Origin: an uncultured Elusimicrobia bacterium
GTDB taxonomy: Bacteria; Elusimicrobiota; Elusimicrobia; 2-01-FULL-59-12
Length of the DNA: 64,000 nt
NCBI GenBank assembly: GCA_963702895.1
Contig: OY969767.1
Location: 2,418,398-2,482,397, forward strand
Direction: 5' to 3'
In this document: one piece after another, positions 1 through 48,949 of the stretch
How positions within the stretch are numbered: the stretch's first letter is position 1
Layout: each line of letters starts with the position of its first letter
Made by a program: the position numbers and the translations under genes
Notes under the pieces: generated by a model
Database searches by the model: none
Told to the model about the DNA's origin: nothing
What the model saw: the letters and a program-made list of their open reading frames with translations, nothing else

Positions 1-3000
1 TTGACCTCGATCACCCGGACATCGAAGACTACATCAACTGGAAGGTCAAAGAAGAGCAAAAGGTGGCGGCTTTGGTCGCTGGGTCCAAGCTCTGCAAAAA
101 GCATCTGAACGAAATCATCAAAGCCGTTCACGCCTGGCCGGAAACCTCCGAGAAGCTTGACCGTAAAAAGAACACGCGCCTGGCCGCCGCCATCCGGGCC
201 GCCAGCGTCTCCATGGTCCCTCTGAATTACGTGGAGCGCGTCCTGGAGCTGGCCGCCCAAGGCGTCATCGAGATTGATTTTGACGAGTACAACACAGACT
301 GGACCTCGGAAGCTTACATCACGGTCTCAGGCCAAAACTCGAACAACTCGGTTCGCATCCCGAACGCCTTTATGGAAGCTCTGCTCGCGGATGGCGATTG
401 GCCGCTCTTCTGGCGCACAGAAAAGGAAAAAGCGGCCAAGGAAAAGCGTGATCCGAAGCCCTACCGGTCCGTCAAGGCAAAAGAACTCTGGGATCAGATC
501 TGCTACGCCGCATGGGCGTGCGCGGACCCTGGCCTGCAATTTGACACGATCATCAACGACTGGCACACCTGCCCCTCGGACGGCCGTATCAACGCTTCCA
601 ACCCCTGCGTGACAGGAGACACCCTCGTTTCCACCACGCAAGGCTATCGCAAAATCATTGATCTTGTGGGTCAGGAAGTTGAAATTGTGGCAGGCGATGG
701 ATCCTCGAAATGGATCAGCCAGGTTTTTCCCACCGGCCATCAGCCTATCTATGAATTAAAAACCGTCTCGGGCTATACCCTCCGTCTCACGGCGGACCAT
801 CGTGTTCTGACTGCCAACCGAGGGGATGTGCGAGCCTGTGAGCTGAGCCAAGACGATTGCGTGGTGTTAGGTCATGTGGGTTTTGGACCCGAATCGCTCC
901 CCAGCGCCGTGGCGGAGGTCATTGGTCTGGCCATCGGCGACGGATGCATTAATTCCGATGGCTATCTCATGATCAACATGGACCGCCTTCAGGAACAGAG
1001 GGTTCTGGAGGCCGCCTCGCGCACCATCAACGCTCTCAAACCAAACAAATTTGGAACGGTTCACTCTGGCGGCACGACCGCGCGGGTCGCGACCTGCGCC
1101 CCTGAGATTGTGCAAGTGGCGGACCACTACGCGGTGTTGGACCAGGGATCTGCCAAGAAGCAATTTTCGGACGCCGTTTGGTCTCTCAATAAAACCAGCC
1201 AGGCCGCTCTTCTCCGAGGTTTGTTCACGTCCGACGGAACGGTGGCCCATTATGGGGAGAAGAGCCACTATGTTGCGCTGGACAGCACTTCTCTTCTCCT
1301 TCTCCAGCAAGTTCAACAGCTCCTGCTTGGCTTCGGCATCAAGGCAAAGATTTACGAAAATCGTCGTGTTGCCGGCAATACCGTTTCTCTGCTTCCGGAT
1401 GGCAAAGGAGGCATCAAGCCTTACGCGGTTCAACAGATCCATTCCCTAAGAATCTCACGATCCTCTCGCCTCCTCTTTCAAAAGGAGATTGGATTCTTGC
1501 CGGATTCCCCAAAAACGGAAAAGCTGGCCGAACTGAATCGATCGATCAGCGTGTACGCGGATGTGATGGTCGATGAAGTGGCATCGCTTGTCCCTTGCGG
1601 TTCCGCTGATGTCTTTGATCTGACAGAACCCCAAACGCATCACTTTGTTGCCAATGGACTGGTGGTTCACAACTGCTCGGAGTACATGTTTCTGGACGAC
1701 ACGGCCTGCAATCTGGCCTCCATCAACCTGATGAAGTTCTACGACACCACCACGGCGCGCCTGGACATTGAAGCCTATCGCCATGCCGTGCGCCTGTGGA
1801 CGATCACCCTGGAAATCTCGGTGACCATGGCCCAATTTCCTTCCTACCCCATCGCGGAAAAATCTTACCTCTATCGGACGCTCGGTCTGGGGTACGCCAA
1901 CCTGGGGGCGCTCCTCATGGTTCAAGGGATCCCTTATGACTCCGACCGAGGGCGCGCGATCGCTGCGGCGCTGAGCGCCATCATGCACATGGGCGCCTAT
2001 GCGACGTCGGCCGAAATGGCTTCCGCGATCGGACCGTTCCCGCGCTTCGAGGCCAACCGAGACGCGATGTTGCGCGTGGTTCGGAACCATCGGCGCGCGG
2101 CCTACCCGACGAAGCGCGAAGACTACGAAGCCTTGACGGTCACGCCGCAGCACATCCGTCCTGAACACTGTCCGGAAGATCTGCTCAAGGGTGCACGCGA
2201 GGATGCGGACCGGGCCCTGGTGATGGGCGAACAGTTTGGGTACCGCAACGCACAGGTCACCGTCATTGCTCCGACGGGAACGATCGGCCTTTCCATGGAT
2301 TGCGACACGACGGGCATCGAGCCGGATTTCGCCCTGGTGAAATTTAAGAAACTGGCTGGCGGCGGCTATCTCAAGATCATCAATCAGACGGTTCCTCCGG
2401 CCCTGAAGACGCTGGGCTACACCACCCTGCAGGTCGACGATATCGTGCGCTATTGCAAAGGAGCCGGCACCCTCAAGGGCTGTCCCCATATCAACCCGGA
2501 CGCACTCAAGACAAAGGGCTTTACCGATGAGGTGATCGCCAAAGTCGAATCCGCGCTGCCCCAAGCCTTTGAAATCGGCTTCGCGTTTAACCAGTGGACC
2601 CTGGGAGAACCCTTCTGCAAAGAAACACTGAAAATCACGGAGGAGCAACTCCATGACTGGAGGTTCTCGATCCTCAAGCACATGGGTTTTTCGCAAGACG
2701 AGATTGCCATCGCGAACGAATACGTCTGCGGCACGATGACCCTGGAAGGAGCTCCACACCTCAAAGCCGAGCACATGCCGGTCTTTGACTGCGCCAATCG
2801 ATGCGGCGCCAAAGGCAAACGCTATATCGCGCCGCTCGCCCACCTGAAGATGATGGCCGCCGCTCAACCCTTCATCTCGGGCGCCATCTCCAAGACCATC
2901 AACCTCCCGCACGAAGCGACGCTTCGGGACATCAACGAAGCCTATGTGGAGTCCTGGCAGTTGATGCTCAAGGCGGTCGCGCTCTACCGCGATGGGTCGA

Positions 3001-3905
3001 AACTCTCTCAACCGCTGAACACCACCTCGGATTCCAGCGGCGACTCCACGATCACGATGGCGGACCTCCAGGAAGGGCCGCTCAAGATATCGGAGAAGAT
3101 TATTCACCGCTATATCGCGCGGCGCCGCCGGCTTCCTTATCGACGCTCCGGCTACACCCAAAAAGCCAAGATTGGGGGCCATACCATTTACCTTCGCACG
3201 GGGGAATACGAAGACAATGCCCTCGGCGAAATCTTCATCGACATGCATAAGGAAGGCGCGGCCTTCCGGAGCCTCATGAACTGCTTTTCCATCGCGATCT
3301 CATTGGGGCTTCAGCACGGTGTGCCGCTCGAAGAATTCGTGGAAGCCTTTGTTTTTACGCGTTTTGAGCCCAACGGGATGGTCCAGGGCAACCCGCAGAT
3401 TAAGATGACAACCTCCATCATCGACTACATCTTCCGGGAGCTCGCCATTTCCTATCTCAACCGGCAAGATTTGGCCCAGGTGACCACGGAGGACCTGCGT
3501 GCTTCTTCCGTCGGCGATCCGGGCGTACAACAGCCGGACTTCTCCGAAGAAGAAGTGGTGAGCGAACGCGTGGTGGACCCCAAGGACATGGCCCAGGTCT
3601 CGCCGACGCATGTGCCCAAGTCGACCCACCTCTCGAACGTGCAGCCCACTCCTCCGGGGCAAGGCACACACGCCATACCCATCAAGAACCAGGCGTCGGC
3701 GGGGGCCTCTTCTGCCGCGTCTTCGGCCGTTTCCCCTGCCATTGGATTCCGACCCCAAATGTCCGCCTTGGCAGACAAGGCCCGCGAGGCCAAGCTCAAA
3801 GGGTATGAAGGGGATCCCTGCCGAGAATGCGGCCAATTCACAATGGTCCGCAATGGCACCTGCCTGAAATGCGATACGTGCGGCACAACATCAGGATGTT
3901 CTTAA
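1..3905 (+). CDS. nrdJ: Class II (adenosylcobalamin-dependent) ribonucleotide reductase, 5'-truncated at window edge, interrupted by an intein
   Basis: Reading frame is open to the window start (frame 3, no upstream stop). Extein shows an RNR-like NPC(S)E active-site motif that is split by the insertion, class II-like blocks ([25 protein letters not shown]; [27 protein letters not shown]) and a C-terminal Cys-rich ribbon ([25 protein letters not shown]). Confidence 0.85.
606..1673 (+). other. Intein (Hint domain with LAGLIDADG homing-endonuclease motifs) inside nrdJ, 356 aa
   Basis: Insertion starts with Cys directly after INASNP and ends GLVVHN followed by Cys+1 (CSEYMFLDD). Contains LAGLIDADG-type motifs [13 protein letters not shown] and [12 protein letters not shown]. 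Removing it restores a contiguous NPCSE motif. Confidence 0.8.
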
Positions 3906-3906
3906 G

Positions 3907-4230
3907 GTGTGCCGCACGCGGCACGACATGCGGTGTCCCAATGCCCCGCCGGAGCCCCTTTTTGTGAATCGATTTCTTAGGCCTCTTGGTGCTCACCGAA
4001 GAAGTTCCGTTGTTCTGGCCATCGCTGGCGTAACATTCTGTCTCGGGTGCCAGCGAAGGACCCCCGACTCTGTGGCACAGGCTCCCCAGGAACCACAGGT
4101 CCAGAACGCTTTCACCGATTACGTCGACCGTGGCGTCCATACGATGGAGAAAGCCGAGAAAGCAGCGGAGACTGCCAACGCTCGCAACGCCGAGTTGCAG
4201 CGTCAGAGTGAGTCTATCCAGGAGCCCTAA
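3907..4230 (+). CDS. Small hypothetical protein, probably secreted; true start may be the in-frame GTG near 3964
   Basis: From the internal GTG the product begins MNRFLRPLGAHRRSS-VVLAIAGVTFCLGC, i.e. a basic n-region followed by a hydrophobic stretch. Stop overlaps the ATG of the next gene (TAATG), suggesting translational coupling. Confidence 0.35.
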   Translation: MCRTRHDMRCPNAPPEPLFVNRFLRPLGAHRRSSVVLAIAGVTFCLGCQRRTPDSVAQAPQEPQVQNAFTDYVDRGVHTMEKAEKAAETANARNAELQRQSESIQEP

Positions 4231-4598
4231 TGGCACGGATCCTGATCATTGATGATGATGTCGACGTGATTGAAATCATCCGGTACACCATCGCCCAGGA
4301 AGGGCATGAACTTTTCGAGGCAAAAAATGGAAAAGAGGGCCTCGATATGTCCATACGAGAGCGCCCTGATATCATTGTGCTCGACATCATGATGCCCGTC
4401 ATGGACGGGTTGACCTTGAACTCTCACCTGAGCGCTTTGCCCGCCACCAAAGACATCCCTGTCATTGTGCTCACAGCGAAAGGACGCATGAAAGATACGT
4501 TTGACAAAGCTCCGAATGTCCGGTGCTATATGGAAAAGCCGTTCGAGCCTGTCGTGCTGCAGGAGAAGATCCGGGAGATTCTGTCCAAGAAACAATAG
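4230..4598 (+). CDS. Single-domain response regulator (CheY-like receiver)
   Basis: 122 aa with receiver hallmarks: ILIIDDD acidic pocket, phospho-acceptor region IIVLDIMMPVMDG, VIVLTAKG and a conserved Lys in EKPF. Confidence 0.85.
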   Translation: MARILIIDDDVDVIEIIRYTIAQEGHELFEAKNGKEGLDMSIRERPDIIVLDIMMPVMDGLTLNSHLSALPATKDIPVIVLTAKGRMKDTFDKAPNVRCYMEKPFEPVVLQEKIREILSKKQ

Positions 4599-4685
4599 CC
4601 AAGATTTCGGAGTCCTCTCACCCCCGGTCGTAGGGACCCGCCTCCGACGAAATAAGCCTTGCACATTCGTGAGGCCTGCTTAGAC

Positions 4686-4956
4686 TTACCCTAAGTACTG
4701 ACTTTCATAGGAGCGCAGCGGGTTTGCGGGAACGATTTTGATGGCGAGACAAGGAACGAGGAGCGAGCATACCTGGAAGGTATGTAAGCGACGAGAGACG
4801 CGGTCGCAGCCCAAAAGCGTCCCGCCCTGCGGGGACGCCGATCTCGGGCGGATGCGTTGTTGCTTCTCACTCACAGACCGCTTCGGGTATGCTCGTTCGT
4901 CGCGCCTAGCCTCCGCCACGAGCTCGGCGTCCAAACCCGCTGCGATCCTATGAAAG
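4686..4956. repeat. 271-bp element bounded by 33-bp imperfect terminal inverted repeats; MITE-like or structured RNA
   Basis: AGTACTGACTTTCATAGGAGCGCAGCGGGTTTG at the left end pairs with the reverse complement of CAAACCCGCTGCGATCCTATGAAAGGCAGTACT at the right end (2 mismatches). Interior holds further stems, e.g. CGAGCATACC ... GGTATGCTCG and GCGTCCC-N8-GGGACGC. Confidence 0.5.
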
Positions 4957-4969
4957 GCAGTACTAAGCT

Positions 4970-7180
4970 ATGATGAGCGCTTCTCACTCTCGGGCGGTCC
5001 GCCTTGCCTTTGGTGTGACCGTTGGAGTCCTTGCCTCCATGAGCGCGGCGGCTTCCTGGAGCGCCTACGCGCTCTTCGGGTCCTTCCGGCAAGTGACGCA
5101 AGCCCAACAGGCCCTCGCCAGATTCCATCATATCGAAGCCCTCATGGAATCAGCGTTTTCTGGCGTGAGCGGCTATGCCCTCTCCGGGGAAGTGGACCGG
5201 CTGAACGCGTTTCACTACGCGAAAATAATTATTCCGCGCGAACTCGATGAGATGGTACGGCTTTCCCCCGTCCGTCGGGAAGACCTGTGGATCTCACTCC
5301 AGAACCAGCTCAACACGCGCCTGGCGCTCATGGCGCGTGCGATCCGACTGAAAGACACGCGAGGGCAGGCGGCCAGCGCGCAGCTGTTAATCTCAGAATC
5401 CGGTTCCTCCCGGGATCAAAGGGAGCGCCTTCTCTCGGAATGCCAGCAGGCCTATCTGCAGCAGATCCAGACAAAGCACGAGGCTTTGAACAGAAGTGCC
5501 GCGCAGACCCAGGGATGGTTGGCGCTCGCGACACTCGTCAGTTTCGCTCTGGTCGGATGGACCTCCTTTCTTCTTCGTAAAGAGACTTGGCAAAGGGCAC
5601 AAGCGGAAACGATCAAAGACCAGACAGAAGCGATGCTGCAATCCGTCATTGAGCGAATTCCTTACATGATTTCCGTCAAAGAGGGCCAGCACCTTCGCGT
5701 GACCCTGGTCAATCGTGCCGCCACGGAATGGATGGGCATGCCCGCTCAAAACATCCTTGGATCTCTGGAGAGTGATCTCCGAGACCCGGAAGAAGCCGCG
5801 GCGTCCATGCAAGCGGATCGAACGGCCCTGGGGGAGGCAAGGACTCTGGAGCTCCATGAGCGCTTGTCGCGCCCAGGCCGAGAGGCGCTCCTGCTCTTCA
5901 CCCAAAAGATCCCGCTCGTCGATGCCAAGGGGCGGCCCACGCATGTTCTGAGCATTTCAGAAAATATCACCCAGCGCAAACAGGCGGAACAGATGCTGGA
6001 GCTCTCCCGGGACGCCGCCGTCGAGGCGGCGCGCCTCAGGTCCGAATTCATCCGGAACATGAGCCACGAATTTCGAACACCCTTAAGCATCGTGATGGGC
6101 ATGACTTCCCTGCTGATGGACACCTCTCTGACGGACGAGCAGCGCTCCTTTGCACAGAGGATCCGGCGCTCCGCAGAAGGGCTTTCGGGGCTCACGAAGA
6201 ACATCCTCGACTTCTCAAAAATCGAAAACGGCTCTTTCACCCTCGAGAACCGTGAGATGAATGTCCTTGAGATTGCTGAAGACGTCCGTGCCATGCTGGC
6301 GGAGCAAGCCAGGGTGAAGGGTCTAGCGCTCGTGACGCTGGCTTCCCCCGCTGTTCCTCCGATCGTCCGGGGCGATGCGACGAGACTTCGCCAAGTCCTG
6401 ACGCAGCTCGTGGCCAACGCCGTCAAGTTCACGGACCGAGGGCAGATCAGCATACGCTTGAGCGTCGAGAAACAAACCGATTCCCAGCTCTGGTTGCGCT
6501 ATCAGGTGACCGATACCGGCATCGGGATATCGGACGATGTACAAAAATATCTTTTTGAACCCTTCCGGCAAGGCGATGGGTCATGGACCAGACGCTATGG
6601 CGGCACGGGTCTGGGCCTGGCCATGGCTAAGCGGATGGTCCAGCTCATGGGGGGACAGATGGGCTTCGAAAGCGCACTCGGCATGGGGTCCACGTTCTGG
6701 TTCACACTGCCGGTCCACAAGCGGCACGTCCAAGGCCCGGTCGTCCAGATTTCATCCCTTCCCTGGACTCGCGCGCGCGTGATGATCGTCAGCGAAAATG
6801 AAGTGGTGCGTAAGATGATTCAGCAGCAGCTCCACGATTGTGCGGTCGCCTGCGAAATGGTTTCGAGCGGTCAAGCGGCGATGGAAATTCTTCGGCGCGA
6901 ACAGAAAGCCGGCAAGAGTTTCCCTATCGTCCTTCTGGGCATGCATTTAACAGACATGGATGCCGTTCATTTCGCCAAGCTGCTTAAACAGGACCATGAC
7001 TTAAAAGCGACCAAGCTGGCCTTGCTCATGCCTGAAACGGATGTGCTGGATAGCTTGACCGCCACGACGCTTGGGTTCGTCGGGGGGGTCCGTCTTCCGT
7101 GCCAGGCCCAGGAACTCTATGACCGCCTGGCCGGCTGGATCGACGCCGCCGAAATGAAGCATCCGCAAAGGGCCGCCTAA
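4970..7180 (+). CDS. Sensor histidine kinase with N-terminal membrane/sensor region, PAS-like domain and C-terminal degenerate receiver-like domain
   Basis: H-box SHEFRTPLSIVMGM and ATP-binding G-box GTGLGLAMAKRMVQLMGG. N-terminal hydrophobic segments. The C-terminal receiver-like region has Gly where the phospho-acceptor Asp is expected (VLLGMHL). Confidence 0.85.
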   Translation: MMSASHSRAVRLAFGVTVGVLASMSAAASWSAYALFGSFRQVTQAQQALARFHHIEALMESAFSGVSGYALSGEVDRLNAFHYAKIIIPRELDEMVRLSPVRREDLWISLQNQLNTRLALMARAIRLKDTRGQAASAQLLISESGSSRDQRERLLSECQQAYLQQIQTKHEALNRSAAQTQGWLALATLVSFALVGWTSFLLRKETWQRAQAETIKDQTEAMLQSVIERIPYMISVKEGQHLRVTLVNRAATEWMGMPAQNILGSLESDLRDPEEAAASMQADRTALGEARTLELHERLSRPGREALLLFTQKIPLVDAKGRPTHVLSISENITQRKQAEQMLELSRDAAVEAARLRSEFIRNMSHEFRTPLSIVMGMTSLLMDTSLTDEQRSFAQRIRRSAEGLSGLTKNILDFSKIENGSFTLENREMNVLEIAEDVRAMLAEQARVKGLALVTLASPAVPPIVRGDATRLRQVLTQLVANAVKFTDRGQISIRLSVEKQTDSQLWLRYQVTDTGIGISDDVQKYLFEPFRQGDGSWTRRYGGTGLGLAMAKRMVQLMGGQMGFESALGMGSTFWFTLPVHKRHVQGPVVQISSLPWTRARVMIVSENEVVRKMIQQQLHDCAVACEMVSSGQAAMEILRREQKAGKSFPIVLLGMHLTDMDAVHFAKLLKQDHDLKATKLALLMPETDVLDSLTATTLGFVGGVRLPCQAQELYDRLAGWIDAAEMKHPQRAA

Positions 7181-7204: not shown

Positions 7205-7510
7205 ATGGAGCCAAGAGAAATGAGACGTTCACCAAGAGCCAAACACGATTCCGTGGTGGAGATTTTCGACGCGGAGGGACATCTCATTATCGGCATTGGA
7301 CGAATGATCAATTTTTCCAACGTCGGCATTTGCTTTTCGAGCACCCAAGTTCTTAAAAAGGGTCAGAGATTGCATGCTCGCATTCGTCTTTTAAGGGAGG
7401 GAGCGCTGGAGACATCGGCCCATATCGTTTGGGTGAAAAAGCGCCCTGCGTTTATGCTCTATGGAATCGCTTTTGATACCATACAAAAGATCCAGACCTC
7501 GGTGATTTGA
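7205..7510 (+). CDS. PilZ-domain protein (putative c-di-GMP receptor)
   Basis: 101 aa with RxxxR (RRSPR) and N/DxSxxG (NFSNVG) PilZ motifs. Good SD (GGGAGG) upstream. Immediately downstream of the two-component genes. Confidence 0.6.
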   Translation: MEPREMRRSPRAKHDSVVEIFDAEGHLIIGIGRMINFSNVGICFSSTQVLKKGQRLHARIRLLREGALETSAHIVWVKKRPAFMLYGIAFDTIQKIQTSVI

Positions 7511-8803: not shown

Positions 8804-8871
8804 AGCCGCGTCGGTCGTGCCGATACCGCGCGGCTCACCCCGTATCTGATTAACCGGGAAACTGCAGTTGC

Positions 8872-8953
8872 CGTCACCCCGGCGGCCGCCAGCCGGGGTC
8901 TATCAGACGTACAAAACCTGATGGATCCCCTGCTTACTACCGCAGGGGATGAC
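8872..8953. repeat. Composite palindromic (REP-like) element cluster, two hairpin units
   Basis: GTCACCCCGGC-N8-GCCGGGGTCTATCAGACG followed by GATGGATCCCCTGC-N8-GCAGGGGATGACGG. The same flank motifs recur at several other sites in the window. Confidence 0.5.
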
Positions 8954-8994
8954 GGCACTAAAAAGTGCACTGGGTTCAGACGGAGAGAATTGGC

Positions 8995-10157
8995 CAACTG
9001 CAGCGTAATATGAAAGCGGGCCTCAAGAGAGTTATAAACAAGGCTGTCGGTAAAGACACCTTAATAACCCCAGGAGGCCCAAAATCATGATATCCATCGG
9101 CATTGATCATCACAAGAAGTATTGTCAGGTTGTGGCTATGAGGGAGTCTGGCGAGATTGTATGGGAAGGTCAAGTCCCCACACGGCGAGAAGGTCTTGCA
9201 CAAGTTAAAGAGGCGATTCCTCCAGGAGAACCGGTGCAAAGTGTATTGGAATCTGGACGGAGCTGGGGCATTGCCTATGACATTCTGGAAGATCTCGGGA
9301 TGAATCCGGTGTTGGCCAATCCTTATAGATCACGATTGATCGCCGACTCGTTTATCAAAACAGACAAAATCGATGCAACGGCACATGCCCTGCTGCTACG
9401 TTTGGGGGTGACCCCAACAATCCACGTGCCGAGTCGAGATCGGCGGGAACAGAAAGCGCTATTGCGGCACCGACTATGGCTAGTGAAGGGACAAACGGTG
9501 ATCAAGAATCGAGTTCATGATTTACTCGACCGACTTCATGTTGACGTTCCCGAACGAAGCGACTTGTTTGGAGCGCATGGCCGGGCGTGGCTGAAGGCTT
9601 TGGAGCTTCCGGAGATGCACCAGCATTTATTGAGATCCCACATGGCATTGCTCGATGAGATTCGCGTCCAAATTCGAGCGACAGAAGAATGGATTGATCG
9701 GGTTTTAAGGGATCACCCTTTGCGCGAGCTTGTCGATTCATTTCCTGGGGTCGGCAAGATCTTAAGTGCTCTGATGGCCTTGGAAATTGACACCATTGAA
9801 CGGTTTCCGACGGCTGCGCGGTTTGCATCGTACTGTGGCGTGGTGTGTAGTACCTACAGTTCAGGGGGTAAGACGTATCACGGAGGATTGATCCCGTCTT
9901 GTAACCGCTATTTACGCTACGCATTAATCGAGGCCTGTTGGACGGCTGTATCTGTATCACCGTACTTTAAAGCCTTTTATCAGCAACGAAGAATTCGAAA
10001 GCTGTCATCGGTCGCTATTGTGGCAGTGGCCAGAAAGATGGCAGAGATCATGTGGGTATGCCTGAAGAACAAGAGGAAGTATAAGGAAAAGATGTATCGA
10101 TTTGGTCGAGTCGCCTTGGCGAAATCTTAACGGAAGCCGCGTTTAACTGCAGCGTAA
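8995..10157 (+). mobile_element. IS110-family insertion sequence (approximate boundaries)
   Basis: Contains a DEDD-type IS110 transposase ORF. Region is flanked by a 13-bp direct repeat AACTGCAGCGTAA (about 8995-9007 and 10145-10157), lacks obvious terminal inverted repeats as is typical for IS110, and is lower in GC than its surroundings. Confidence 0.6.
9087..10130 (+). CDS. IS110-family transposase
   Basis: N-terminal ISIGIDHHKK (GIDxxK-type DEDD start) and C-terminal block FPGVGKILSALMALEIDTIERFPTAARFASYCGVV..SGGK typical of IS110/IS1111 transposases. Confidence 0.85.
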   Translation: MISIGIDHHKKYCQVVAMRESGEIVWEGQVPTRREGLAQVKEAIPPGEPVQSVLESGRSWGIAYDILEDLGMNPVLANPYRSRLIADSFIKTDKIDATAHALLLRLGVTPTIHVPSRDRREQKALLRHRLWLVKGQTVIKNRVHDLLDRLHVDVPERSDLFGAHGRAWLKALELPEMHQHLLRSHMALLDEIRVQIRATEEWIDRVLRDHPLRELVDSFPGVGKILSALMALEIDTIERFPTAARFASYCGVVCSTYSSGGKTYHGGLIPSCNRYLRYALIEACWTAVSVSPYFKAFYQQRRIRKLSSVAIVAVARKMAEIMWVCLKNKRKYKEKMYRFGRVALAKS

Positions 10158-32067: not shown

Positions 32068-32079
32068 ACCCAAATGTTC

Positions 32080-32205
32080 GTCACCCCGGCGGATTGTTAG
32101 CCGGCCCTCCAGACGCCCGGCGGGCCGTCCGCCCTGCCGTGTGGCGGACGGAGTCTATCATCGACGAAAAAGACATGATGGATCCCGGCTTTCGCCGGGA
32201 TGACG
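32080..32205. repeat. Composite palindromic (REP-like) element cluster, three hairpins
   Basis: GTCACCCCGGCGG...; CCGTCCGCC-N9-GGCGGACGG; GATGGATCCCGGC-TTTC-GCCGGGATGACGG. Same flank motifs as the 8872-8953 cluster. Confidence 0.5.
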
Positions 32206-32300
32206 GCATAGTAGAGTTTGCTTATTACGGACGATAACACCGTTTCATTCGACAATTTTCGGGTTAATACGTCTATTAGGTTAGAGAGGCAAAGGAACGA

Positions 32301-36589: not shown

Positions 36590-37075
36590 CTCCCGGACCT
36601 GGGCGCCGCACGACCGGCGCTCGCCCGACTATAGTGTGTCGGGTGAACCTAGACGAAGTGCAAAACTCCCGGACTAGGATTCGAGCGCCACACTTCGGGC
36701 GCTCGCCCGACTGTTGTGTGTCGGGTGAACCTAGACGAAGTGCAAAACTCCCGGACTAGGATTCGAGCGCCACACTTCGGGCGCTCGCCCGACTGTTGTG
36801 TGTCGGGTGAACCTAGACGAAGTGCAAAACTCCCGGACTAGGATTCGAGCGCCACACTTCGGGCGCTCGCCCGACTGTTGTGTGTCGGGCGAACCTAGAC
36901 GAAGTGCAAAACTCCCGGACTAGGATTCGAGCGCCACACTTCGGGCGCTCGCCCGACTGTTGTGTGTCGGGCGAACCTAGACGAAGTGCAAAACTCCCGG
37001 ACTAGGATTCGAGCGCCACACTTCGGGCGCTCGCCCGACTGTTGTGTGTCGGGCGAACCTAGACGAAGTGCAAAA
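36590..37075 (-). repeat. Tandem array of six head-to-tail ~82-bp units (five 82-bp plus one degenerate 76-bp distal copy), each a tRNA-Gln 3'-end copy with a two-hairpin insert
   Basis: The motif CAAAACTCCCGGACTAGG recurs at a strict 82-bp period (36661, 36743, 36825, 36907, 36989, 37071). Units contain two perfect 7-bp hairpins, GCCCGAC-N8-GTCGGGC and GAGCGCC-N8-GGCGCTC. No unique spacers. Confidence 0.85.
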
Positions 37076-37146
37076 CTCCCGGACTAGGATTCGAACCTAG
37101 ACTAAGGGATTCAGAGTCCCTCGTGCTACCGTTACACAATCCGGGA
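37076..37146 (-). tRNA. tRNA-Gln (anticodon CUG), 71 nt, CCA not encoded
   Basis: Manual cloverleaf: acceptor TCCCGGA/TCCGGGA with U1-A72 and G73 discriminator (both typical of bacterial tRNA-Gln); D-arm GTGT-AACGGTA-GCAC; anticodon arm AGGGA-CTCTGAA-TCCCT (CUG at about 37112-37114 on the minus strand); T-arm CTAGG-TTCGAAT-CCTAG. Confidence 0.8.
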
Positions 37147-37330: not shown

Positions 37331-37849
37331 TTATGGTTTGATGATTTCCGGTCCTTTGCTCACGCCGGGCGGGATGATTATATCAGGGCCTTTTTTCTCC
37401 GTCGCCTTTTCGGCGGACGCCTCGGACTTGCGGACTTCGTCAGCAAAGTTGAGCTCCAGGTCGGACACCAGGTTGTCGAGCATCTCCTGTTCTTTGACGC
37501 TCAAGTTTCCTTCCGTCTTTTCCTGAAGCATGCGCAAGAACTCAATCGAGATGCGGGCCTGATCGATGTCCTTTTCGATCTTCTGGGTCACCGGATGGGG
37601 CACTTTCCCCAGCTGCGCCCAGGCGGCAGACCCCAAGGACATCACCAGCGTCAAAAACCGGTAATCGTCCACAACGCTATCAGGCGGACGAGCGCCTGTT
37701 GTGTGGCGCTCGGCTTCTCCTGGCATTTCAATTTTTTCTTCTGACACAACCACCCTCCTTGCCGTCACCCCAGCGGATTGTGAGCCGGGGTCCATCGTTA
37801 TTGGCGTAGGCATGATGGATCCCCCACTTACAGCCGTGGGGGATGACAC
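37331..37849 (-). CDS. DUF1844-like protein; N-terminal region overlaps a palindromic repeat, so the true start may be internal
   Basis: C-terminal part (LTLVMSLGSAAWAQLGKVPHPVTQKIEKDIDQARISIEFLRMLQEKTEGNLSVKEQEMLDNLVSDLELNF) matches the small conserved family commonly encoded beside gltX. The N-terminal about 40 codons lie on palindromic-repeat sequence. Confidence 0.55.
   Translation of the reverse strand: MSSPTAVSGGSIMPTPITMDPGSQSAGVTARRVVVSEEKIEMPGEAERHTTGARPPDSVVDDYRFLTLVMSLGSAAWAQLGKVPHPVTQKIEKDIDQARISIEFLRMLQEKTEGNLSVKEQEMLDNLVSDLELNFADEVRKSEASAEKATEKKGPDIIIPPGVSKGPEIIKP
37762..37849. repeat. Palindromic element pair overlapping the 5' end of the DUF1844-like ORF
   Basis: CATGATGGATCCCCCA-CTTACAGCC-GTGGGGGATGACAC plus an adjacent GGACCCCGGCTCACAATCCGCTGGGGTGACGG unit. 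Near-identical to the element inside metH at about 47011-47127. Confidence 0.5.
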
Positions 37850-44384: not shown

Positions 44385-45206
44385 ATGAGACGGCGAGCTT
44401 GGCTTTCCTTGCTTCTTTTGGGGTTCTGTGTGTTCAATTTGGCTCCGGGGTCAGAGGCCCGCGTGAAGATTTCGAAGCTTGCTGAGAAATTGGTTTACGG
44501 CGACCAGCCCACGAGGCTCGCCGGGATTGAAGAGTTCAACAAGCTGCCCGCGGAAGCCCAGCAAAAACTGGTACCTGATTTTATGGTCGCCATGAGCGAT
44601 GAAGATCCAGAGGCCCGCAAAATCGCCTCTCGCATCTTGAAAGCGATGGGTGTCCAAGCGGAAGCCCAGGTCCCAGACGCGAAAAAGGAGATCGCCTCAG
44701 AGAAGTCCAAGACCAAGCCCATCGACAAGTGGGAAGAAGAGAAACGCTTAAAACAGGAGGCGAGTCAGGATAAGTGGGCTGATTTAAGAAGCATGCGCTC
44801 GGAAGAGCAGGGGGGCTACGCCTCCATGAAGCAACAACTCGAAAGCGAAAAGAAGGGCCAGGTGTGGATCGATCCCTCCCAGCTCACCACCGAGGCCTTG
44901 GACAAGACCTCGCCTCTCGGTTCTGTGACCGAGGCTTTGCGTGACTCGGATCCGTGGGTGAGAGCACAGGCCGCGCGGCGCCTCGGCACGATCCGGCCCG
45001 CGCCCGTGGAAGCCATCCCCGACCTCATCGCGATGCTGGGTGAGAACATCCCGGAGTCGCGCCGCGCGGCGGCCGCTGCGCTCGGTTCCTTTGGGCCCCT
45101 GGCGGAAAAAGCGCTTCCTGCCCTCACAACGGCCCTCTCCGACCCTGACCCCGCCACGCGGCAGATCGCGCAAGAGGCGATTAAGCAGATTCAAATGCAC
45201 CCGTGA
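44385..45206 (+). CDS. Secreted HEAT-repeat protein
   Basis: Signal peptide; C-terminal HEAT-like repeats (DSDPWVRAQAARRLGTI; ESRRAAAAALGSFG; DPATRQIAQEAIKQI). Confidence 0.6.
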   Translation: MRRRAWLSLLLLGFCVFNLAPGSEARVKISKLAEKLVYGDQPTRLAGIEEFNKLPAEAQQKLVPDFMVAMSDEDPEARKIASRILKAMGVQAEAQVPDAKKEIASEKSKTKPIDKWEEEKRLKQEASQDKWADLRSMRSEEQGGYASMKQQLESEKKGQVWIDPSQLTTEALDKTSPLGSVTEALRDSDPWVRAQAARRLGTIRPAPVEAIPDLIAMLGENIPESRRAAAAALGSFGPLAEKALPALTTALSDPDPATRQIAQEAIKQIQMHP

Positions 45207-48200
45207 CCCGAGACGATTTCAACAAACTCCTTCGCGAACAGGTTCTCGTCTTCGACGGGGCTACAGGCACCAACCTTCAGCTCCACAATCCCACCCTGGA
45301 CGACTATGCCGGCATGGAAGGCTGCACCGAAATTCTTCTTGAAACACATCCGGAATGGATCGAGGAGCTTCACGCCTCCTTCTTTAAAGCGGGATGCCAG
45401 GTCGTGGAGACCAATTCTTTTGGGGCGAATCGTATCGTTTTCACCGAATACGGTCTTGAGGACCGGGTTCATGAGTTTAATGTCAAAGCGGCCCAGCTTG
45501 CTCGGAAAGTCGCCCATGCCTTCAGCGCCCAAGACAAACCCCGTTTTGTCGCGGGCTCCATGGGTCCTGGCACGAAGCTTCCTTCTCTTGGACACACCAC
45601 TTTCGACACACTGCGCCATAACTACCAGGAACAAGCTGAAGGTCTGATCGACGGGGGCGTGGACATCCTCCTGATCGAAACCTGCCAGGATATCCTACAG
45701 GCCAAAGCCGCCACGGTGGGCGTTCTGGACGCTCTTTCCCGCAAGAAGAAGGACCTCCCGATCATGGTGCAGGTCACCGTGGAGTCCACGGGGACTTTGC
45801 TCTTGGGGACCGAAATGGCGGCGGTCATCTCCGCTTTGGAGCCCTATCCCATCGCTTCCCTCGGCATGAACTGTGCGACGGGCCCCCAGGAGATGTCGGA
45901 ACACGTGCGGATCCTGTCCCAGCAGTGGGCCCGGCCTATTTCTGTTCTTCCCAACGCGGGTTTACCCGAAAACGTGGGCGGACGAGCAGTCTATCGGCTC
46001 ACTCCTCAGGAGCTGGCCGAGCATCTGAAAGATTTCGTCACCCGGTTCGGGATCAATATCGTAGGCGGCTGCTGTGGGACCACGCCCGCGCATCTGGCTG
46101 AAGTCGTGAAAGTCATGGAGAAGATCAAGCCTGTTCCGAGAAGCCTCTCAAGCACCCCGGCTTGTTCAAGCCTCTACCTTCAAGTGCCCTTCAAGCAGGA
46201 GCCGAGGCCTCTTATCATCGGTGAACGCACGAATGCCAACGGCTCCAAGAAATTTCGTGAGCTGCTCGCCAAGGATGACTTTGATGCGATCGCCGCCATG
46301 GGAAAAGAAGAGGTGAACGAGGGCGCTCACATGATCGACCTCTGCACAGCTTTTGTGGGCCGGGACGAGGTCCGTGACATGAAGGAATGTGTGAGCCGCA
46401 TGGCGCTCCAGGTGCGCCTGCCGCTCATGATTGACTCCACCGAGGCCCCCGTGATTGAAGAAGCTCTTAAACGTGCGGGCGGACGCTGTGTCATCAATTC
46501 CATCAACCTGGAAGATGGCGAAGAAAGAATGAAGGCGGTCTGCCCTCTGGCCAAGACTTATGGCGCAGCCCTGGTGGCGCTCACAATCGACGAGCAAGGC
46601 ATGGCCAAAACCCGGCAAAAGAAGCTCGCCATCGCCAAGCGCATTCACGATCTGGCCATCAAGCGCTTCGGTCTGCGACCGGAAGATTTGCTGTTCGACG
46701 CTTTGACGTTTACGCTCGGTTCGGGTGACGAGGATTTTCGCAAGGCAGGTCTCGAGACCATCGAGGCCATCCGCCTGATCAAAAAGGAGCTCCCCGGAGT
46801 CTTCACCGTACTGGGCGTTTCCAATATCTCGTTTGGTCTGGCACCCCAGATCCGCCAGGTGTTGAACTCGGTGTTTCTCCATTACGCCATTGAAGCCGGT
46901 CTCGACGCTGCCATTGTCCACGCACGCAAGATCCTGCCCCTCTACAAAATCGATGAGAAAGGACGGGAGCTCGCTCGTAAATTGATTTTTGATGATCGCA
47001 CACCCCTCTCGTCATCCCCCGCGGGTGTCAGCGGGGGATCCATCATGATGGACCCCGGGTCTCCAAACAACAGGCGACCCGGCCCGCCGGACGTGTGGAG
47101 GGCCGGCTTACAATCCGCCGGGGTGACGGCTTCTTTTGATCCTCTGACCGCGCTCATGGCGCACTATGCCGAAACCTCAGAGATCTCTGCGAAAGCGAAT
47201 AAGGAAGAACCCAAGACCATCGAAGAGCATCTCAAGGTCCGTATCATCGACGGGAATAAACAGGGCCTGGAGGGACTGCTCGATGAGGCGATGAAGAAGT
47301 GGGGTCCGCTCGAGATCATCAACACCATACTGCTTGACGGGATGCGGGTGGTGGGCGATTTGTTTGGTTCGGGCCAGATGCAGCTCCCCTTCGTTCTTCA
47401 GTCCGCGGAAACCATGAAAGTGGCGGTGCGTCATCTGGAGCCCTTCATGCCTAAGGCGGACGCTGGTGTTCATAAAGGGAAGCTCGTCCTTGCGACCGTC
47501 AAAGGGGACGTTCACGACATCGGGAAGAACCTCGTCGATATCATCCTCACGAACAACGGCTACAAGGTTTTCAATTTGGGCATCAAGATGTCGATCGATG
47601 AGATCCTCAAGGCTGCCGCGGAAAAGAAGGCCGATGCGATCGGGATGTCAGGCTTGCTCGTCAAATCGACGGCGGTCATGAAGGAAAACTTAGAGGAGAT
47701 GAATAAACGAGGCGTGCAAACGCCGGTCCTTTTGGGTGGGGCGGCTCTCACGCGCCGATTTGTGGAAGAAGATCTCCGGCAGCTCTACAAGGGCTATGTC
47801 TATTATGGGGTGGACGCTTTTGCGGGGCTTCGCATCATGGACGAGCTGACCAACCCTTCCAGAGAAAAGAAGTTGACCCTCTATGAGACGCGTGGCGGTT
47901 CGGGCCAAACCTTGAAAGCGGGAGACTTGCCCTCACCCCACCCCTCTCCCGCCTTCGGCGGGAGAGGGCGGTCGCCAGACGCCTGGCGACCGGGTGAGGG
48001 CACGCTCTATATCCCTCTATCCCCCTCTCCTTCTATTCCTCATCCGCCGTTCTGGGGCAGCCGGGTCGCGCGAGGAATCGCTTTAAAGGATGTCTTCCCC
48101 TATATCAACGAAACGGCCCTCCTCAAAGTGCGCTGGGGCTTTTCCAGGGGGCAAACAAGCGCCGAAGATTACGCGCAACTCCTTAAGGAAACCGTTGGGC

Positions 48201-48904
48201 CGCTCTTTCAGAAGTGGAAAAACTACTGCCTTAAGGAGCAGATACTGGTCCCGCAAGTGGTTTACGGTTATTTCCCTTGCCTGTCTGAAGGAGATGATGT
48301 GGTGGTGTATAGGCCGGAAGATTTGAAAAAGGAATGGGTGCGCTTTAAATTCCCGCGACAAAACACGACTCCGATGCGATGTATCAGTGACTTCTTTCTC
48401 CAAAAGCCGTCATCCCGGCATGCTGTAAGCCGGGATCCATCAGACGTGATGGATCCCCCGCTAAAGTCCGCGGGGGATGACAGAAAGAATTTTGACGTAT
48501 TAGGTTGCTTTGTCGTGACGGTCGGAACCCAGGCAAGCAACAAAGCGCATGCCCTCTTCAAGGAGAACTCCTACAGCGATTATCTCTACCTGCACGGGCT
48601 AAGCGTGGAAACGGCCGAAGCCTTAGCCGAGCACTGGCACCGCCGCATGCGTGAGGAGCTGAACATCCACCAGGAAGATCACCCGGAGGTGCGTGAATGG
48701 TTTCACCAGAAGTACCATGGCGGTCGCTACTCTTTTGGGTATCCCGCCTGCCCCAACCTGGAAGATCAAGCAAAGCTTTTTGAACTGCTGGATCCCCAAC
48801 GCATTGGCGTAGCGCTCTCCGAAGCGTTTCAGTTAGACCCTGAGCAAAGCACCTCCGCCATCGTCCTGCACCACCCCGAAGCCAAATACTTTAACGTCCA
48901 GTAA
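45203..48904 (+). CDS. metH: Cobalamin-dependent methionine synthase (Hcy-binding, pterin-binding, B12-binding and AdoMet-activation domains) carrying three in-frame palindromic insertions
   Basis: Single 1233-aa ORF with Hcy-domain start (VLVFDGATGTNLQ), GCCGTTPAHL, B12-binding region and C-terminal activation domain. Start overlaps the upstream stop. Confidence 0.9.
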   Translation: MTRDDFNKLLREQVLVFDGATGTNLQLHNPTLDDYAGMEGCTEILLETHPEWIEELHASFFKAGCQVVETNSFGANRIVFTEYGLEDRVHEFNVKAAQLARKVAHAFSAQDKPRFVAGSMGPGTKLPSLGHTTFDTLRHNYQEQAEGLIDGGVDILLIETCQDILQAKAATVGVLDALSRKKKDLPIMVQVTVESTGTLLLGTEMAAVISALEPYPIASLGMNCATGPQEMSEHVRILSQQWARPISVLPNAGLPENVGGRAVYRLTPQELAEHLKDFVTRFGINIVGGCCGTTPAHLAEVVKVMEKIKPVPRSLSSTPACSSLYLQVPFKQEPRPLIIGERTNANGSKKFRELLAKDDFDAIAAMGKEEVNEGAHMIDLCTAFVGRDEVRDMKECVSRMALQVRLPLMIDSTEAPVIEEALKRAGGRCVINSINLEDGEERMKAVCPLAKTYGAALVALTIDEQGMAKTRQKKLAIAKRIHDLAIKRFGLRPEDLLFDALTFTLGSGDEDFRKAGLETIEAIRLIKKELPGVFTVLGVSNISFGLAPQIRQVLNSVFLHYAIEAGLDAAIVHARKILPLYKIDEKGRELARKLIFDDRTPLSSSPAGVSGGSIMMDPGSPNNRRPGPPDVWRAGLQSAGVTASFDPLTALMAHYAETSEISAKANKEEPKTIEEHLKVRIIDGNKQGLEGLLDEAMKKWGPLEIINTILLDGMRVVGDLFGSGQMQLPFVLQSAETMKVAVRHLEPFMPKADAGVHKGKLVLATVKGDVHDIGKNLVDIILTNNGYKVFNLGIKMSIDEILKAAAEKKADAIGMSGLLVKSTAVMKENLEEMNKRGVQTPVLLGGAALTRRFVEEDLRQLYKGYVYYGVDAFAGLRIMDELTNPSREKKLTLYETRGGSGQTLKAGDLPSPHPSPAFGGRGRSPDAWRPGEGTLYIPLSPSPSIPHPPFWGSRVARGIALKDVFPYINETALLKVRWGFSRGQTSAEDYAQLLKETVGPLFQKWKNYCLKEQILVPQVVYGYFPCLSEGDDVVVYRPEDLKKEWVRFKFPRQNTTPMRCISDFFLQKPSSRHAVSRDPSDVMDPPLKSAGDDRKNFDVLGCFVVTVGTQASNKAHALFKENSYSDYLYLHGLSVETAEALAEHWHRRMREELNIHQEDHPEVREWFHQKYHGGRYSFGYPACPNLEDQAKLFELLDPQRIGVALSEAFQLDPEQSTSAIVLHHPEAKYFNVQ
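47011..47127. repeat. Palindromic element pair lying in frame inside metH
   Basis: GTCATCCCCCGCGGG-TGTCA-GCGGGGGATCCATCATGATGGACCCCGGG ... GGCTTACAATCCGCCGGGGTGACGG. Encodes SSSPAGVSGGSIMMDPGSPNNRRPGPPDVWRAGLQSAGVTA. Confidence 0.6.
47930..48000. repeat. Nested palindrome (CCCTCACC ... GGGTGAGGG family) lying in frame inside metH
   Basis: CCCTCACCCCACCCCTCTCCCGCC-TTCG-GGCGGGAGAGGGCGGTCGCCAG-ACGC-CTGGCGACCGGGTGAGGG: an outer stem enclosing two hairpins, followed by a CT-rich tract. Encodes PSPHPSPAFGGRGRSPDAWRPGEG. Confidence 0.6.
48409..48482. repeat. Two opposed palindromic units lying in frame inside metH
   Basis: GTCATCCCGGC-ATGCTGTAA-GCCGGGATCCATCAGACGTGATGGATCCCCCGC-TAAAGTCC-GCGGGGGATGACAG. 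Confidence 0.6.
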
Positions 48905-48908
48905 CGTC

Positions 48909-48940
48909 GTCATCCCGGCTTACGTCCTGCCGGGGTGACG
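48909..48940. repeat. Palindromic hairpin immediately after the metH stop, between convergent genes
   Basis: GTCATCCCGGC-TTACGTCCT-GCCGGGGTGACG followed by TTAAAAAATC. May act as a bidirectional terminator or mRNA 3'-end stabiliser. Confidence 0.45.
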
Positions 48941-48949
48941 TTAAAAAAT

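What the first reader, a model, noticed from the sequence alone, without database searches (positions are those of the whole stretch)
4686..4956. IR-bounded structured element between response regulator and histidine kinase genes
A 271-bp segment with 33-bp terminal inverted repeats (two mismatches, each ending in the palindrome AGTACT) lies between the CheY-like gene and the hybrid kinase, ending 13 nt before the kinase start. The interior has several mutually exclusive pairing options (for example CATACC-TGGAA-GGTATG locally against CGAGCATACC pairing about 115 nt away). It could be a MITE, or a cis-regulatory leader RNA controlling kinase expression.
Basis: seen in the sequence. Interest (0 to 1): 0.5.

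Follow-up and report, generated by a model that had tools for sequence, protein, structure and literature searches.

The report
Small mobile element splitting kinase promoter
The inverted-repeat segment is a small non-coding mobile DNA element (a MITE-like insertion), missing from the same site in related genomes, that landed between a kinase gene's conserved promoter-like motif and its start codon; it is an ordinary kind of element in an interesting position, not a conserved regulatory RNA.

Summary
The inverted repeats are real but sit 8 nt right of the stated coordinates: 33-nt arms at 4694-4726 and 4932-4964, or 36 nt (92%) at 4691-4726/4932-4967, each bounded by CTAAG.

I read the 272-277-bp segment as a non-autonomous TIR element (MITE-like):
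- It has no credible ORF and no Rfam match.
- Six orthologous RR-HK-PilZ loci (HK 55-59% identical) lack it. Their kinase ATG lies 6-12 nt after a conserved TTGC-N16-18-TAGACT motif, and removing the element restores that layout.
- A second, diverged copy with near-identical termini lies upstream of a pilin-like gene in soil-metagenome contigs. That copy is absent from its ortholog and is itself interrupted by an IS1111-like element.
- Logan contig breaks imply another copy of the right end in the source sample.

TANNNT hexamers 6-8 nt before start codons without a Shine-Dalgarno motif occur in 9-10 of 39 window genes. I therefore infer that the kinase was leaderless. The insertion now separates the -10-like hexamer from the ATG, and the native transcript would carry a ~275-nt hairpin leader.

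Unresolved: the transposase family, the TSD (TAA/CTAAG, or none), the copy number in the source genome, and any effect on expression. A conserved leader RNA is not supported.

The parts
4230..4598 (+). CheY-like single-domain response regulator gene, upstream neighbour
   Evidence: Pfam Response_reg, E=2e-21. The same gene sits in the same position in orthologous loci L084-L088.
4659..4686 (+). Conserved promoter-like motif of the kinase gene: TTGCAC (4659-4664), a 16-nt spacer, then TAGACT (4681-4686)
   Evidence: All six orthologous upstream regions carry cTTGC-N16-18-TAGACTTG. It is the only TTGNNN-N16-19-TANNNT match on either strand in 4600-5000. The E. coli-type consensus scan did not call it, because it matches only 7 of 12 positions. 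Promoter function is inferred from conservation and position.
4691..4695 (.). Left CTAAG: either one copy of a target-site duplication (TAA or CTAAG) or the outermost bases of the element
   Evidence: The same 5-mer is a direct repeat at both ends of the window copy and of the L090 copy. The two readings could not be separated.
4691..4726 (.). Left terminal inverted repeat (36 nt)
   Evidence: the repeat finder pair I1, 92% complementary to 4932-4967. It matches the left end of the L090 copy at 35 of 36 positions.
4696..4962 (.). Body of the non-autonomous element (minimal extent if CTAAG is the duplicated target). The insertion relative to orthologs is 272 bp with a TSD or 277 bp without one.
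   Evidence: Absent from orthologous loci. ORFs of 59-82 aa inside it have no homologues: one search gave 0 hits and one search gave one weak hit (E=9e-4, 29% identity to a 374-aa protein) that I do not regard as meaningful. No Rfam match.
4768..4784 (.). Local hairpin CATACC-TGGAA-GGTATG in the left arm
   Evidence: Present in the sequence. The L090 copy has CATACTC-GCATA-GAGTATG at the same place, a hairpin with a changed stem and loop. With only two sequences this is weak evidence.
4921..4967 (.). 47-nt stretch behaving as a repeat node in the Logan assembly graph of sample ERR11561443
   Evidence: Contig L001 ends at window 4950 and contig L002 starts at 4938. Each overlaps a 47-nt node by k-1 = 30 nt. 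Logan uses k=31 and drops contigs shorter than 150 bp (PMC12424806). That this reflects at least one more copy of the right end is my inference.
4932..4967 (.). Right terminal inverted repeat (36 nt), ending in the right CTAAG (4963-4967)
   Evidence: The terminal 38 nt are identical to the right end of the L003/L090 copy, and similarity stops right after CTAAG.
4970..7180 (+). Hybrid sensor histidine kinase gene (CHASE3-PAS-HisKA-HATPase_c-REC), intact, with no Shine-Dalgarno motif
   Evidence: Pfam. Orthologs are 44-59% identical at full length. N-termini align, so the ATG at 4970 is the orthologous start.
7205..7510 (+). PilZ-domain gene, conserved downstream neighbour
   Evidence: Pfam PilZ. 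Present in every orthologous locus.

Best explanation
The segment is a non-autonomous DNA transposon of the MITE type. It is about 270 bp long, non-coding, bounded by 36-bp terminal inverted repeats, and is presumably moved in trans by a transposase encoded elsewhere. That transposase was not found. The CTAAG ends fit insertion at C|TNA|G with TNA duplication, as in part of the IS5/PIF-Harbinger superfamily, but this is only a lead.

In this genome the element inserted 5-9 nt downstream of the conserved TAGACT -10-like hexamer of a hybrid histidine-kinase gene. In relatives that gene starts 6-12 nt after the hexamer, which implies a leaderless or near-leaderless mRNA.

Shown here: the element is an insertion relative to orthologs, and it belongs to a dispersed family.

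Inferred: transcription from the native promoter now begins at or near the left terminus of the element. The mRNA then carries the whole element as a ~275-nt leader that can fold into a ~130-bp imperfect hairpin ending about 5 nt before an AUG with no Shine-Dalgarno motif. This should lower or otherwise change kinase translation. Processing of the long duplex, as RNase III does for Correia elements, could regenerate a short leader.
For: 1. Inverted repeats and palindromic architecture are far beyond chance.
2. Six orthologous loci keep the RNR-RR-HK-PilZ synteny. Five have the RR directly upstream of the HK with a 70-94 nt spacer, against 371 nt here. L089 has one extra gene between RR and HK (62 nt to the HK). 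All six lack the element.
3. Deleting 272 or 277 bp from the window restores the orthologs' TTGC-N16-18-TAGACT-N6-12-ATG layout.
4. A second copy lies upstream of a pilin-like gene in L003/L090/L091. Its left TIR matches at 35/36 and its right terminal 38 nt at 38/38. The interior is 76% identical with a 43-nt indel. Its 65%-identical ortholog L092 lacks it.
5. The Logan contig breaks fit a 47-nt repeat node at the right end, ending exactly after CTAAG.
6. There is no coding capacity and no Rfam family.
7. Leaderless layout is common in this genome. TANNNT starts at -12 to -14 in 10 of 39 genes, and 9 of the 10 have no SD-like motif. The kinase orthologs have TAGACT 6-12 nt before the ATG.
8. 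No alternative promoter-like motif occurs inside the element on either strand.
9. Known MITEs act on neighbouring genes through promoters, IHF sites and RNase III cleavage at their TIRs (review PMC10969869). The C|TNA|G target, with the same 3-versus-5-bp ambiguity, is described for NuwaII elements (PMC4482050).
Against: No autonomous partner with the same TIRs was found. The window holds no DDE transposase among ORFs of 200 aa or more.

Only two copies could be read, plus one inferred, and none of the others is in the 64-kb window. The TIR pattern had 0 hits in 185,579 GTDB species representatives and 1 hit in JGI metagenomes.

The TSD is unproven. CTAAG flanks both ends in both copies, and the inferred third right end also ends in CTAAG, so these bases may simply be the termini.

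G+C is 60%, above the window's 56.5%, whereas MITEs are typically AT-rich.

The promoter, the leaderless start and any effect on expression are inferred from sequence only.
Confidence: 0.8

Rival explanations
1. The window element is a deletion derivative of the 1.88-kb TIR-bounded unit seen in L090. That unit carries an IS110/IS1111-type DEDD transposase, which would be the autonomous parent that moves the small element.
For: In L090 the same 36-bp termini enclose a 338-aa DEDD_Tnp_IS110/Transposase_20 gene. The window element equals the left ~45 nt plus the right ~270 nt of that unit. A 6-nt GCCGGA sits at both breakpoints and could have mediated a deletion. The window also has an IS110-type gene 4 kb away.
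Against: The 1,550-bp insert has the layout of a self-contained IS1111-type element (criteria from PMC11187229). It has a long non-coding region downstream of tnp. It has short subterminal inverted repeats (GAGCGCC/GGCGCTC) with asymmetric extensions, which I saw by eye in the sequence. A 12-nt copy of its own circle junction lies in the non-coding region (reached or exceeded in 1 of 200 shuffles). IS110/IS1111 elements lack long TIRs and are known to target REPs, attC sites and transposon TIRs. The small element's two arms are complete without the insert. The window's IS110-type protein is only 27% identical to the L090 one.
Confidence: 0.07
2. The segment is a locus-specific cis-regulatory leader RNA (riboswitch, attenuator or thermosensor-like) that evolved to control kinase expression.
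For: It lies between the promoter-like motif and the start codon and would be transcribed. Its predicted structure is very stable. Alternative pairings exist.
Against: It is absent from all six orthologous loci. The reverse strand folds equally well. The same element occurs in front of an unrelated pilin-like gene. The full-length hairpin is not conserved in that copy. There is no Rfam hit.
Confidence: 0.03
3. The segment is a repeated palindromic element of another kind, for example a REP/BIME-like unit spread by a RAYT-type enzyme, or an element that integrates without target duplication. On this reading CTAAG belongs to the element and there is no TSD.
For: CTAAG is found at every end seen so far, including the inferred third right end. 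Removing 277 bp gives TAGACT-6 nt-ATG. That matches L086/L088 and the usual -12 geometry of leaderless genes in this genome. The genome also holds a second family of GC-rich palindromic repeats.
Against: REPs are 20-40-nt palindromes, not 270-bp units with 36-bp TIRs. No RAYT gene was seen in the window. Orthologs L084/L087 have CCTAGG/CCTAGA, and L092 has CTAAG, at the corresponding places, which suggests that CTAAG pre-existed as the target.
Confidence: 0.08
4. The segment is a local, non-mobile inverted duplication (fold-back) that arose once at this site.
For: The window holds a single copy. This copy is palindromic over its full length.
Against: A second copy exists in an unrelated locus of another organism, with identical termini. 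The assembly graph shows a repeat node.
Confidence: 0.01

Closest known systems
Prokaryotic MITEs in general (review PMC10969869)
   Same: Under 500 bp, non-coding, with terminal inverted repeats. Intergenic and close to gene starts. The transcript can form a stable stem-loop. Presence or absence differs between related genomes.
   Different: The 36-bp TIRs are at the long end of the usual range. G+C is 60%, not AT-rich. No partner IS is known, and the TSD is not proven.
Correia/NEMIS elements of Neisseria
   Same: Small TIR-bounded palindromic elements often found just upstream of genes and co-transcribed with them. Their TIR duplex is cut by RNase III, and they can insert between a promoter and a gene, as at mtrCDE (PMC10969869). 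This is the best functional analogue for a hairpin leader created by insertion.
   Different: No sequence similarity was seen or expected. Correia elements duplicate TA, carry their own sigma70 promoters and an IHF site. No promoter-like motif was found in this element.
Tourist-like MITEs and NuwaII elements of the PIF/Harbinger-IS5 (PHIS) superfamily
   Same: Insertion at C|TNA|G with the same unresolved choice between a 3-bp (TNA) and a 5-bp (CTNAG) duplication (PMC4482050). Both readable copies here are flanked by CTAAG on both sides.
   Different: Those are eukaryotic families. No IS5-type transposase or TIR similarity was shown here. All ends seen carry the same central base, which could mean that CTAAG is part of the element.
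Tn3-derived inverted-repeat miniature elements (TIMEs)
   Same: From my own recollection, not checked here: elements of about 200-300 bp with TIRs of about 38 bp and 5-bp duplications.
   Different: As I recall, Tn3-family TIRs start with GGGG. This element starts (CTAAG)TACTG, with no such motif.
IS1111/IS110-type insertion sequences that target repeats
   Same: The L090 copy is the landing site of such an IS. This parallels the IS1111 members that target REP sequences, attC sites and Tn21-family TIRs (PMC11187229, PMC12288879).
   Different: The window element has no DEDD transposase, has long TIRs, and sits at two unrelated target sequences.

Membership tests
MITE (non-autonomous TIR transposon) | Short (under ~500 bp) with no transposase or other credible ORF | tested here: met
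   272-277 bp. The internal ORFs of 59-82 aa have no homologues: one search gave 0 hits, and one search gave only one weak hit (E=9e-4) that I do not regard as meaningful. ORFs are listed.
MITE (non-autonomous TIR transposon) | Terminal inverted repeats | tested here: met
   36 nt at 92% complementarity. No match of this quality in 100 shuffles. The termini are conserved in the second copy.
MITE (non-autonomous TIR transposon) | Target-site duplication flanking the TIRs | tested here: inconclusive
   CTAAG is a direct repeat at both ends of both readable copies. It is the same sequence in every copy, so a TSD at a preferred CTAAG target cannot be told apart from element-internal termini. Ortholog comparison fits both a 272-bp and a 277-bp insertion.
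MITE (non-autonomous TIR transposon) | Insertion polymorphism: filled site versus empty orthologous site | tested here: met
   Six HK orthologous loci lack it. The L092 ortholog of the second locus lacks it. All of these orthologs are distant (55-65% protein identity).
MITE (non-autonomous TIR transposon) | Several dispersed copies within a genome | tested here: inconclusive
   One copy in the 64-kb window. One copy in another organism. One further right end is inferred from Logan contig breaks in the source sample. The rest of the 2.72-Mb source contig (size) could not be read.
MITE (non-autonomous TIR transposon) | A cognate autonomous IS with matching TIRs | tested here: inconclusive
   None found. 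There were 0 hits in GTDB representatives and 1 hit in JGI metagenomes, which was the second small copy. Nothing turned up in IMG/VR or PLSDB. The window holds no DDE transposase.
IS5 / PIF-Harbinger (PHIS)-derived MITE | C|TNA|G or TNA target duplication | tested here: inconclusive
   The CTAAG ends are consistent with this (PMC4482050). Variation of the central base among copies was not observed.
IS5 / PIF-Harbinger (PHIS)-derived MITE | TIR similarity to, or mobilisation by, an IS5-family DDE transposase | not testable with these tools
   No ISfinder-type TIR library is available, and no partner IS was recovered.
Conserved cis-regulatory leader RNA | Presence at orthologous loci with structure-preserving covariation on one strand | tested here: not met
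   Absent from all six orthologous loci. Both strands fold equally well. The full-length hairpin is not kept in the second copy. No Rfam match.
IS110/IS1111 family element or derivative | DEDD transposase, non-coding guide-RNA region, no long TIRs, one specific target sequence | tested here: not met
   The window element has no tnp and has 36-bp TIRs. Its two insertion sites share only CTAAG. The IS1111-like unit in L090 has its own ends inside the element.
Correia/NEMIS | TA duplication, characteristic 26-bp TIR, internal promoters and IHF site | tested here: not met
   The ends are CTAAG/TAA, not a symmetric TA. No promoter-like motif lies inside. An IHF site was not tested.
REP/BIME | 20-40-nt palindromic units, often in clusters, associated with a RAYT enzyme | tested here: not met
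   This is a single 270-bp unit with distinct 36-bp TIRs. No RAYT gene was seen among the window ORFs.

The most novel reading that the evidence does not exclude
The element family may be more than passive. Both readable copies have the same orientation, with the right terminus 2 nt and 22 nt upstream of a start codon. In the window the insertion converts a leaderless kinase gene into one with a long double-stranded leader. If these insertions are retained because the hairpin, perhaps after RNase III processing, gives a new post-transcriptional control of leaderless genes, this would be a mobile regulatory module specific to a lineage rich in leaderless genes. The family would also double as the programmed landing pad of an RNA-guided IS1111-type element.
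Probability: 0.08. Interest if true: 0.55.

Novelty: new member of a known kind. Interest (0 to 1): 0.27.

Why it matters
The element is an ordinary kind of mobile DNA, from a poorly sampled lineage. The only taxonomic clue is that one kinase ortholog is labelled Elusimicrobiota. Its position is what makes it instructive. It separates a conserved -10-like hexamer from the start codon of a gene that looks leaderless in relatives. That makes it a natural test of what happens to a leaderless gene when a ~275-nt hairpin is placed in front of its AUG. For annotation, the practical point is that the long RR-HK spacer should be labelled as a repeat or mobile-element insertion, not as a candidate riboswitch. 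The side observations may deserve more attention than the element itself. These are the frequency of the leaderless layout, a second palindromic repeat family that sits in frame inside metH, and an IS1111-like element that uses a copy of this element as its target.

Tried and rejected
1. Rfam at gathering threshold over the whole window, and at E<=10 on 4400-5200, gave nothing relevant.
2. A search for more copies in the window, by pattern with up to 3 mismatches and by blastn with word size 7, found none.
3. The TIR pattern had 0 hits in GTDB species representatives.
It returned only paralogs at 43% identity or less and no orthologous locus.
5. Three further pattern scans of IMG/VR and a distant blastn against PLSDB gave nothing, apart from one chance 17-nt match in a phage gene.
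6. I tried to find other copies through spurious ORFs that gene callers might have predicted. The 82-aa minus-strand ORF had 0 hits among 5.8 billion proteins. The 71-aa plus-strand ORF had one weak hit (E=9e-4) among 1.84 billion representatives, which I do not regard as meaningful.
7. The E. coli-type promoter/terminator scan found no sites in 4400-5200. The conserved motif matches only 7 of 12 consensus positions.
8. I tested whether the non-coding region of the L090 IS carries target-matching segments. The 8-mer ACGTGTGG is not significant on its own (reached or exceeded in 93 of 200 shuffles). Only the 12-nt circle-junction copy is (1 of 200).
9. I considered and rejected an integron attC site, an IS200/IS605-type PATE and a retron ncRNA. 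There are no GTTRRRY cores, no Y1 transposase or subterminal-hairpin-only ends, and no adjacent reverse transcriptase.

Full report
**Observation**

- The 33-nt arms with two mismatches are at 4694-4726 and 4932-4964 (none in 100 shuffles).
- The repeat finder extends them to 36 nt at 92% complementarity, 4691-4726/4932-4967. Both ends are bounded by CTAAG.
- The right end is therefore 2-5 nt from the kinase ATG at 4970, not 13 nt.
- The whole segment is an imperfect palindrome, 68% identical to its own reverse complement over 284 nt.
- It folds into one long hairpin on either strand, with dG -153 and -151 kcal/mol and z-scores of -9.9 and -9.1.
- This strand symmetry already points to a DNA-level repeat structure rather than a strand-specific RNA.
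- No Rfam family matches.
- The internal ORFs of 59-82 aa have no meaningful relatives in the large protein collections. One search gave 0 hits and one search gave one weak hit at E=9e-4.

**Context**

Upstream are a ribonucleotide reductase gene with an intein, a small ORF and a CheY-like receiver gene (4230-4598). Downstream are a CHASE3-PAS-HisKA-HATPase-REC hybrid kinase (4970-7180) and a PilZ gene.

The source lineage is poorly sampled.
- The kinase has no ortholog among 185,579 GTDB species representatives; the best hits are 43% identical or less over partial matches.
- It has orthologs at 44-59% identity in metagenome assemblies. One partial ortholog (P0031, 57% identical) is labelled Elusimicrobiota.

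**The segment is an insertion**

Six orthologous loci (L084-L089) keep the RNR-RR-HK-PilZ arrangement.
- In five of them the RR-HK spacer is 70-94 nt, against 371 nt in the window.
- In L089 one extra gene lies between the RR and the HK.
- All six upstream regions share cTTGC-N16-18-TAGACTTG, followed after only 6-12 nt by the ATG.
- The kinase N-termini align residue for residue, so these are homologous start codons.
- The window has the same motif at 4659-4686 (TTGCAC, 16 nt, TAGACT). The element lies between it and the ATG.
- Removing 272 bp (keeping one CTAAG) gives TAGACT-11 nt-ATG, as in L084/L087.
- Removing 277 bp gives TAGACT-6 nt-ATG, as in L086/L088.
- Either way the ancestral layout is restored.

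**The segment belongs to a dispersed family**

A scan of JGI metagenomes with a TIR pattern gave one hit, L003. The neighbouring pilin-like protein led to the longer contig L090 and to L091.
- In L090 the same termini occur upstream of an unrelated prepilin-like gene. The left TIR matches at 35/36 and the right terminal 38 nt at 38/38.
- CTAAG is again present at both ends.
- The interior is 76% identical to the window copy and has a 43-nt indel at the apex.
- The 65%-identical ortholog of that locus, L092, has the same flanking genes but no element.

In sample ERR11561443 the two Logan contigs identical to the window stop at 4950 and restart at 4938.
- Logan uses k=31 and drops contigs shorter than 150 bp (PMC12424806).
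- This is the signature of a 47-nt repeat node spanning 4921-4967.
- I infer at least one more copy of the right end in that sample, diverging immediately after CTAAG.
- An empty-site allele would instead break the graph at 4963.

**What kind of element**

Short length, lack of coding capacity, long TIRs, filled-versus-empty sites and dispersed copies fit a MITE. Three things remain open.

First, the transposase.
- No DDE transposase occurs among the window's ORFs of 200 aa or more.
- No larger element with these TIRs was recovered.

Second, the target-site duplication.
- CTAAG...CTAAG is a direct repeat. A true inverted repeat would read CTAAG...CTTAG.
- It matches the C|TNA|G target described for NuwaII elements of the PIF/Harbinger-IS5 superfamily. 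The authors of that work met the same 3-versus-5-bp ambiguity (PMC4482050).
- Orthologs L084/L087 (CCTAGG, CCTAGA) and L092 (CTAAG) hint that the target pre-existed.
- However, every end seen carries the same central base. The 277-bp excision reproduces the commonest leaderless geometry of this genome. So CTAAG may instead be part of the element.

**The IS110-type gene in the second copy**

In L090 the two termini are 1.8 kb apart. A 338-aa DEDD (IS110-family) transposase gene lies between them. I considered whether this 1.88-kb unit is the autonomous parent. I think not.
- The 1,550-bp insert (L090 552-2101) interrupts the left arm at the position equivalent to window 4735-4744.
- It has GCCGGA at both junctions.
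- It has a 436-nt non-coding region downstream of tnp.
- It has short subterminal inverted repeats (GAGCGCC/GGCGCTC) with asymmetric extensions, which I saw by eye in the sequence.
- A 12-nt copy of its own circle junction lies in the non-coding region, reached or exceeded in 1 of 200 shuffles.
- This is the IS1111-type layout. Such elements are known to target REPs, attC sites and transposon TIRs (PMC11187229; PMC12288879).
- The small element's two arms are complete without the insert.

I keep the parent hypothesis at about 7%.

**How it most likely acts at this locus (inferred)**

TANNNT hexamers start at -12 to -14 in 10 of 39 window genes. In 9 of those 10 there is no SD-like motif. Examples are TATAAT, TAGAAT and TAAAAT. 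Leaderless mRNAs therefore seem common in this genome, and the kinase orthologs fit that pattern.

In the window the -10-like TAGACT ends at 4686.
- A TSS 6-9 nt downstream would fall in the left CTAAG.
- The native transcript would then carry the whole element as a ~275-nt leader, folded into a ~130-bp imperfect duplex ending about 5 nt before the AUG.
- No Shine-Dalgarno motif precedes the AUG.
- No other TTGNNN-N16-19-TANNNT motif exists in 4600-5000 on either strand, so an outward promoter is not evident.

The expected result is reduced or altered kinase translation. Cleavage of the duplex, as RNase III does at Correia TIRs (PMC10969869), could regenerate a short leader. The kinase ORF is intact, so the insertion is either recent or tolerated.

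The full-length hairpin is not conserved in the L090 copy. Only the termini, the left interior and the small hairpin at 4768-4784 are. This argues against selection for the long RNA structure.

**Verdict**

This is a new member of a known kind of element, in an informative position. Interest is modest.

Noticed in passing
window, upstream of many start codons (e.g. 20077, 24025, 27756, 44385; minus-strand genes ending at 13536, 39334, 56446, 63905): TANNNT hexamers (TATAAT, TAGAAT, TAAAAT and similar) start at -12 to -14 from the start codon in 10 of 39 genes. In 9 of the 10 there is no Shine-Dalgarno-like motif. This suggests that leaderless mRNAs are frequent in this genome.
   Followed up: partly
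window 8870-8954, 32079-32207, 37761-37847, 46996-47140, 48396-48490, 48901-48950: A second, unrelated family of GC-rich palindromic repeats (CGTCATCCCGGC...GCCGGGGTGACG and GTCATCCCCCGCGGG...CCCGCGGGGGATGAC). A 12-nt core has 7 hits against 0.47 expected. Two copies lie inside the intact metH ORF (45203-48904), in a linker and in a variable loop of the activation domain. This resembles Rickettsia palindromic elements inserted in frame.
   Followed up: partly
L090 552-2101 (ENA ERZ27315238 k141_1407809): A 1,550-bp IS1111-like element (DEDD transposase on the minus strand, 436-nt non-coding region downstream of tnp, GCCGGA at both junctions) sits inside the second copy of the MITE. Its right junction, CCGCCGGACGTGTGGAGG, matches window 47084-47101 at 18/18. 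That window site lies in the second repeat family inside metH, so the IS target sequence may recur in both repeat families.
   Followed up: partly
window 8996-10157: An IS110-family transposase gene (9087-10130, 347 aa) is bracketed by a perfect 13-nt direct repeat, AACTGCAGCGTAA, at 8996-9008 and 10145-10157. A copy of the second repeat family lies just upstream. The non-coding ends inside that bracket (78 and 14 nt) look too short for a guide RNA, so the true boundaries are unclear.
   Followed up: no
window 36616-37094: An 82-nt tandem repeat, 5.8 copies at 99% identity, lies directly next to a tRNA gene (37076-37146, minus strand). An inverted partial copy is at 37681-37712.
   Followed up: no
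window 63-3905: The ribonucleotide reductase gene carries an intein with a LAGLIDADG homing-endonuclease domain (Pfam Intein_splicing and LAGLIDADG_3). The ortholog in L084 (1,237 aa) shows no intein domains in its precomputed Pfam list.
   Followed up: no
window 60309-60445: 41-nt inverted repeats (76% complementary) rich in CGTCCGACG-type units lie at the junction of two ORFs (59397-60320 and 60274-61755).
   Followed up: no
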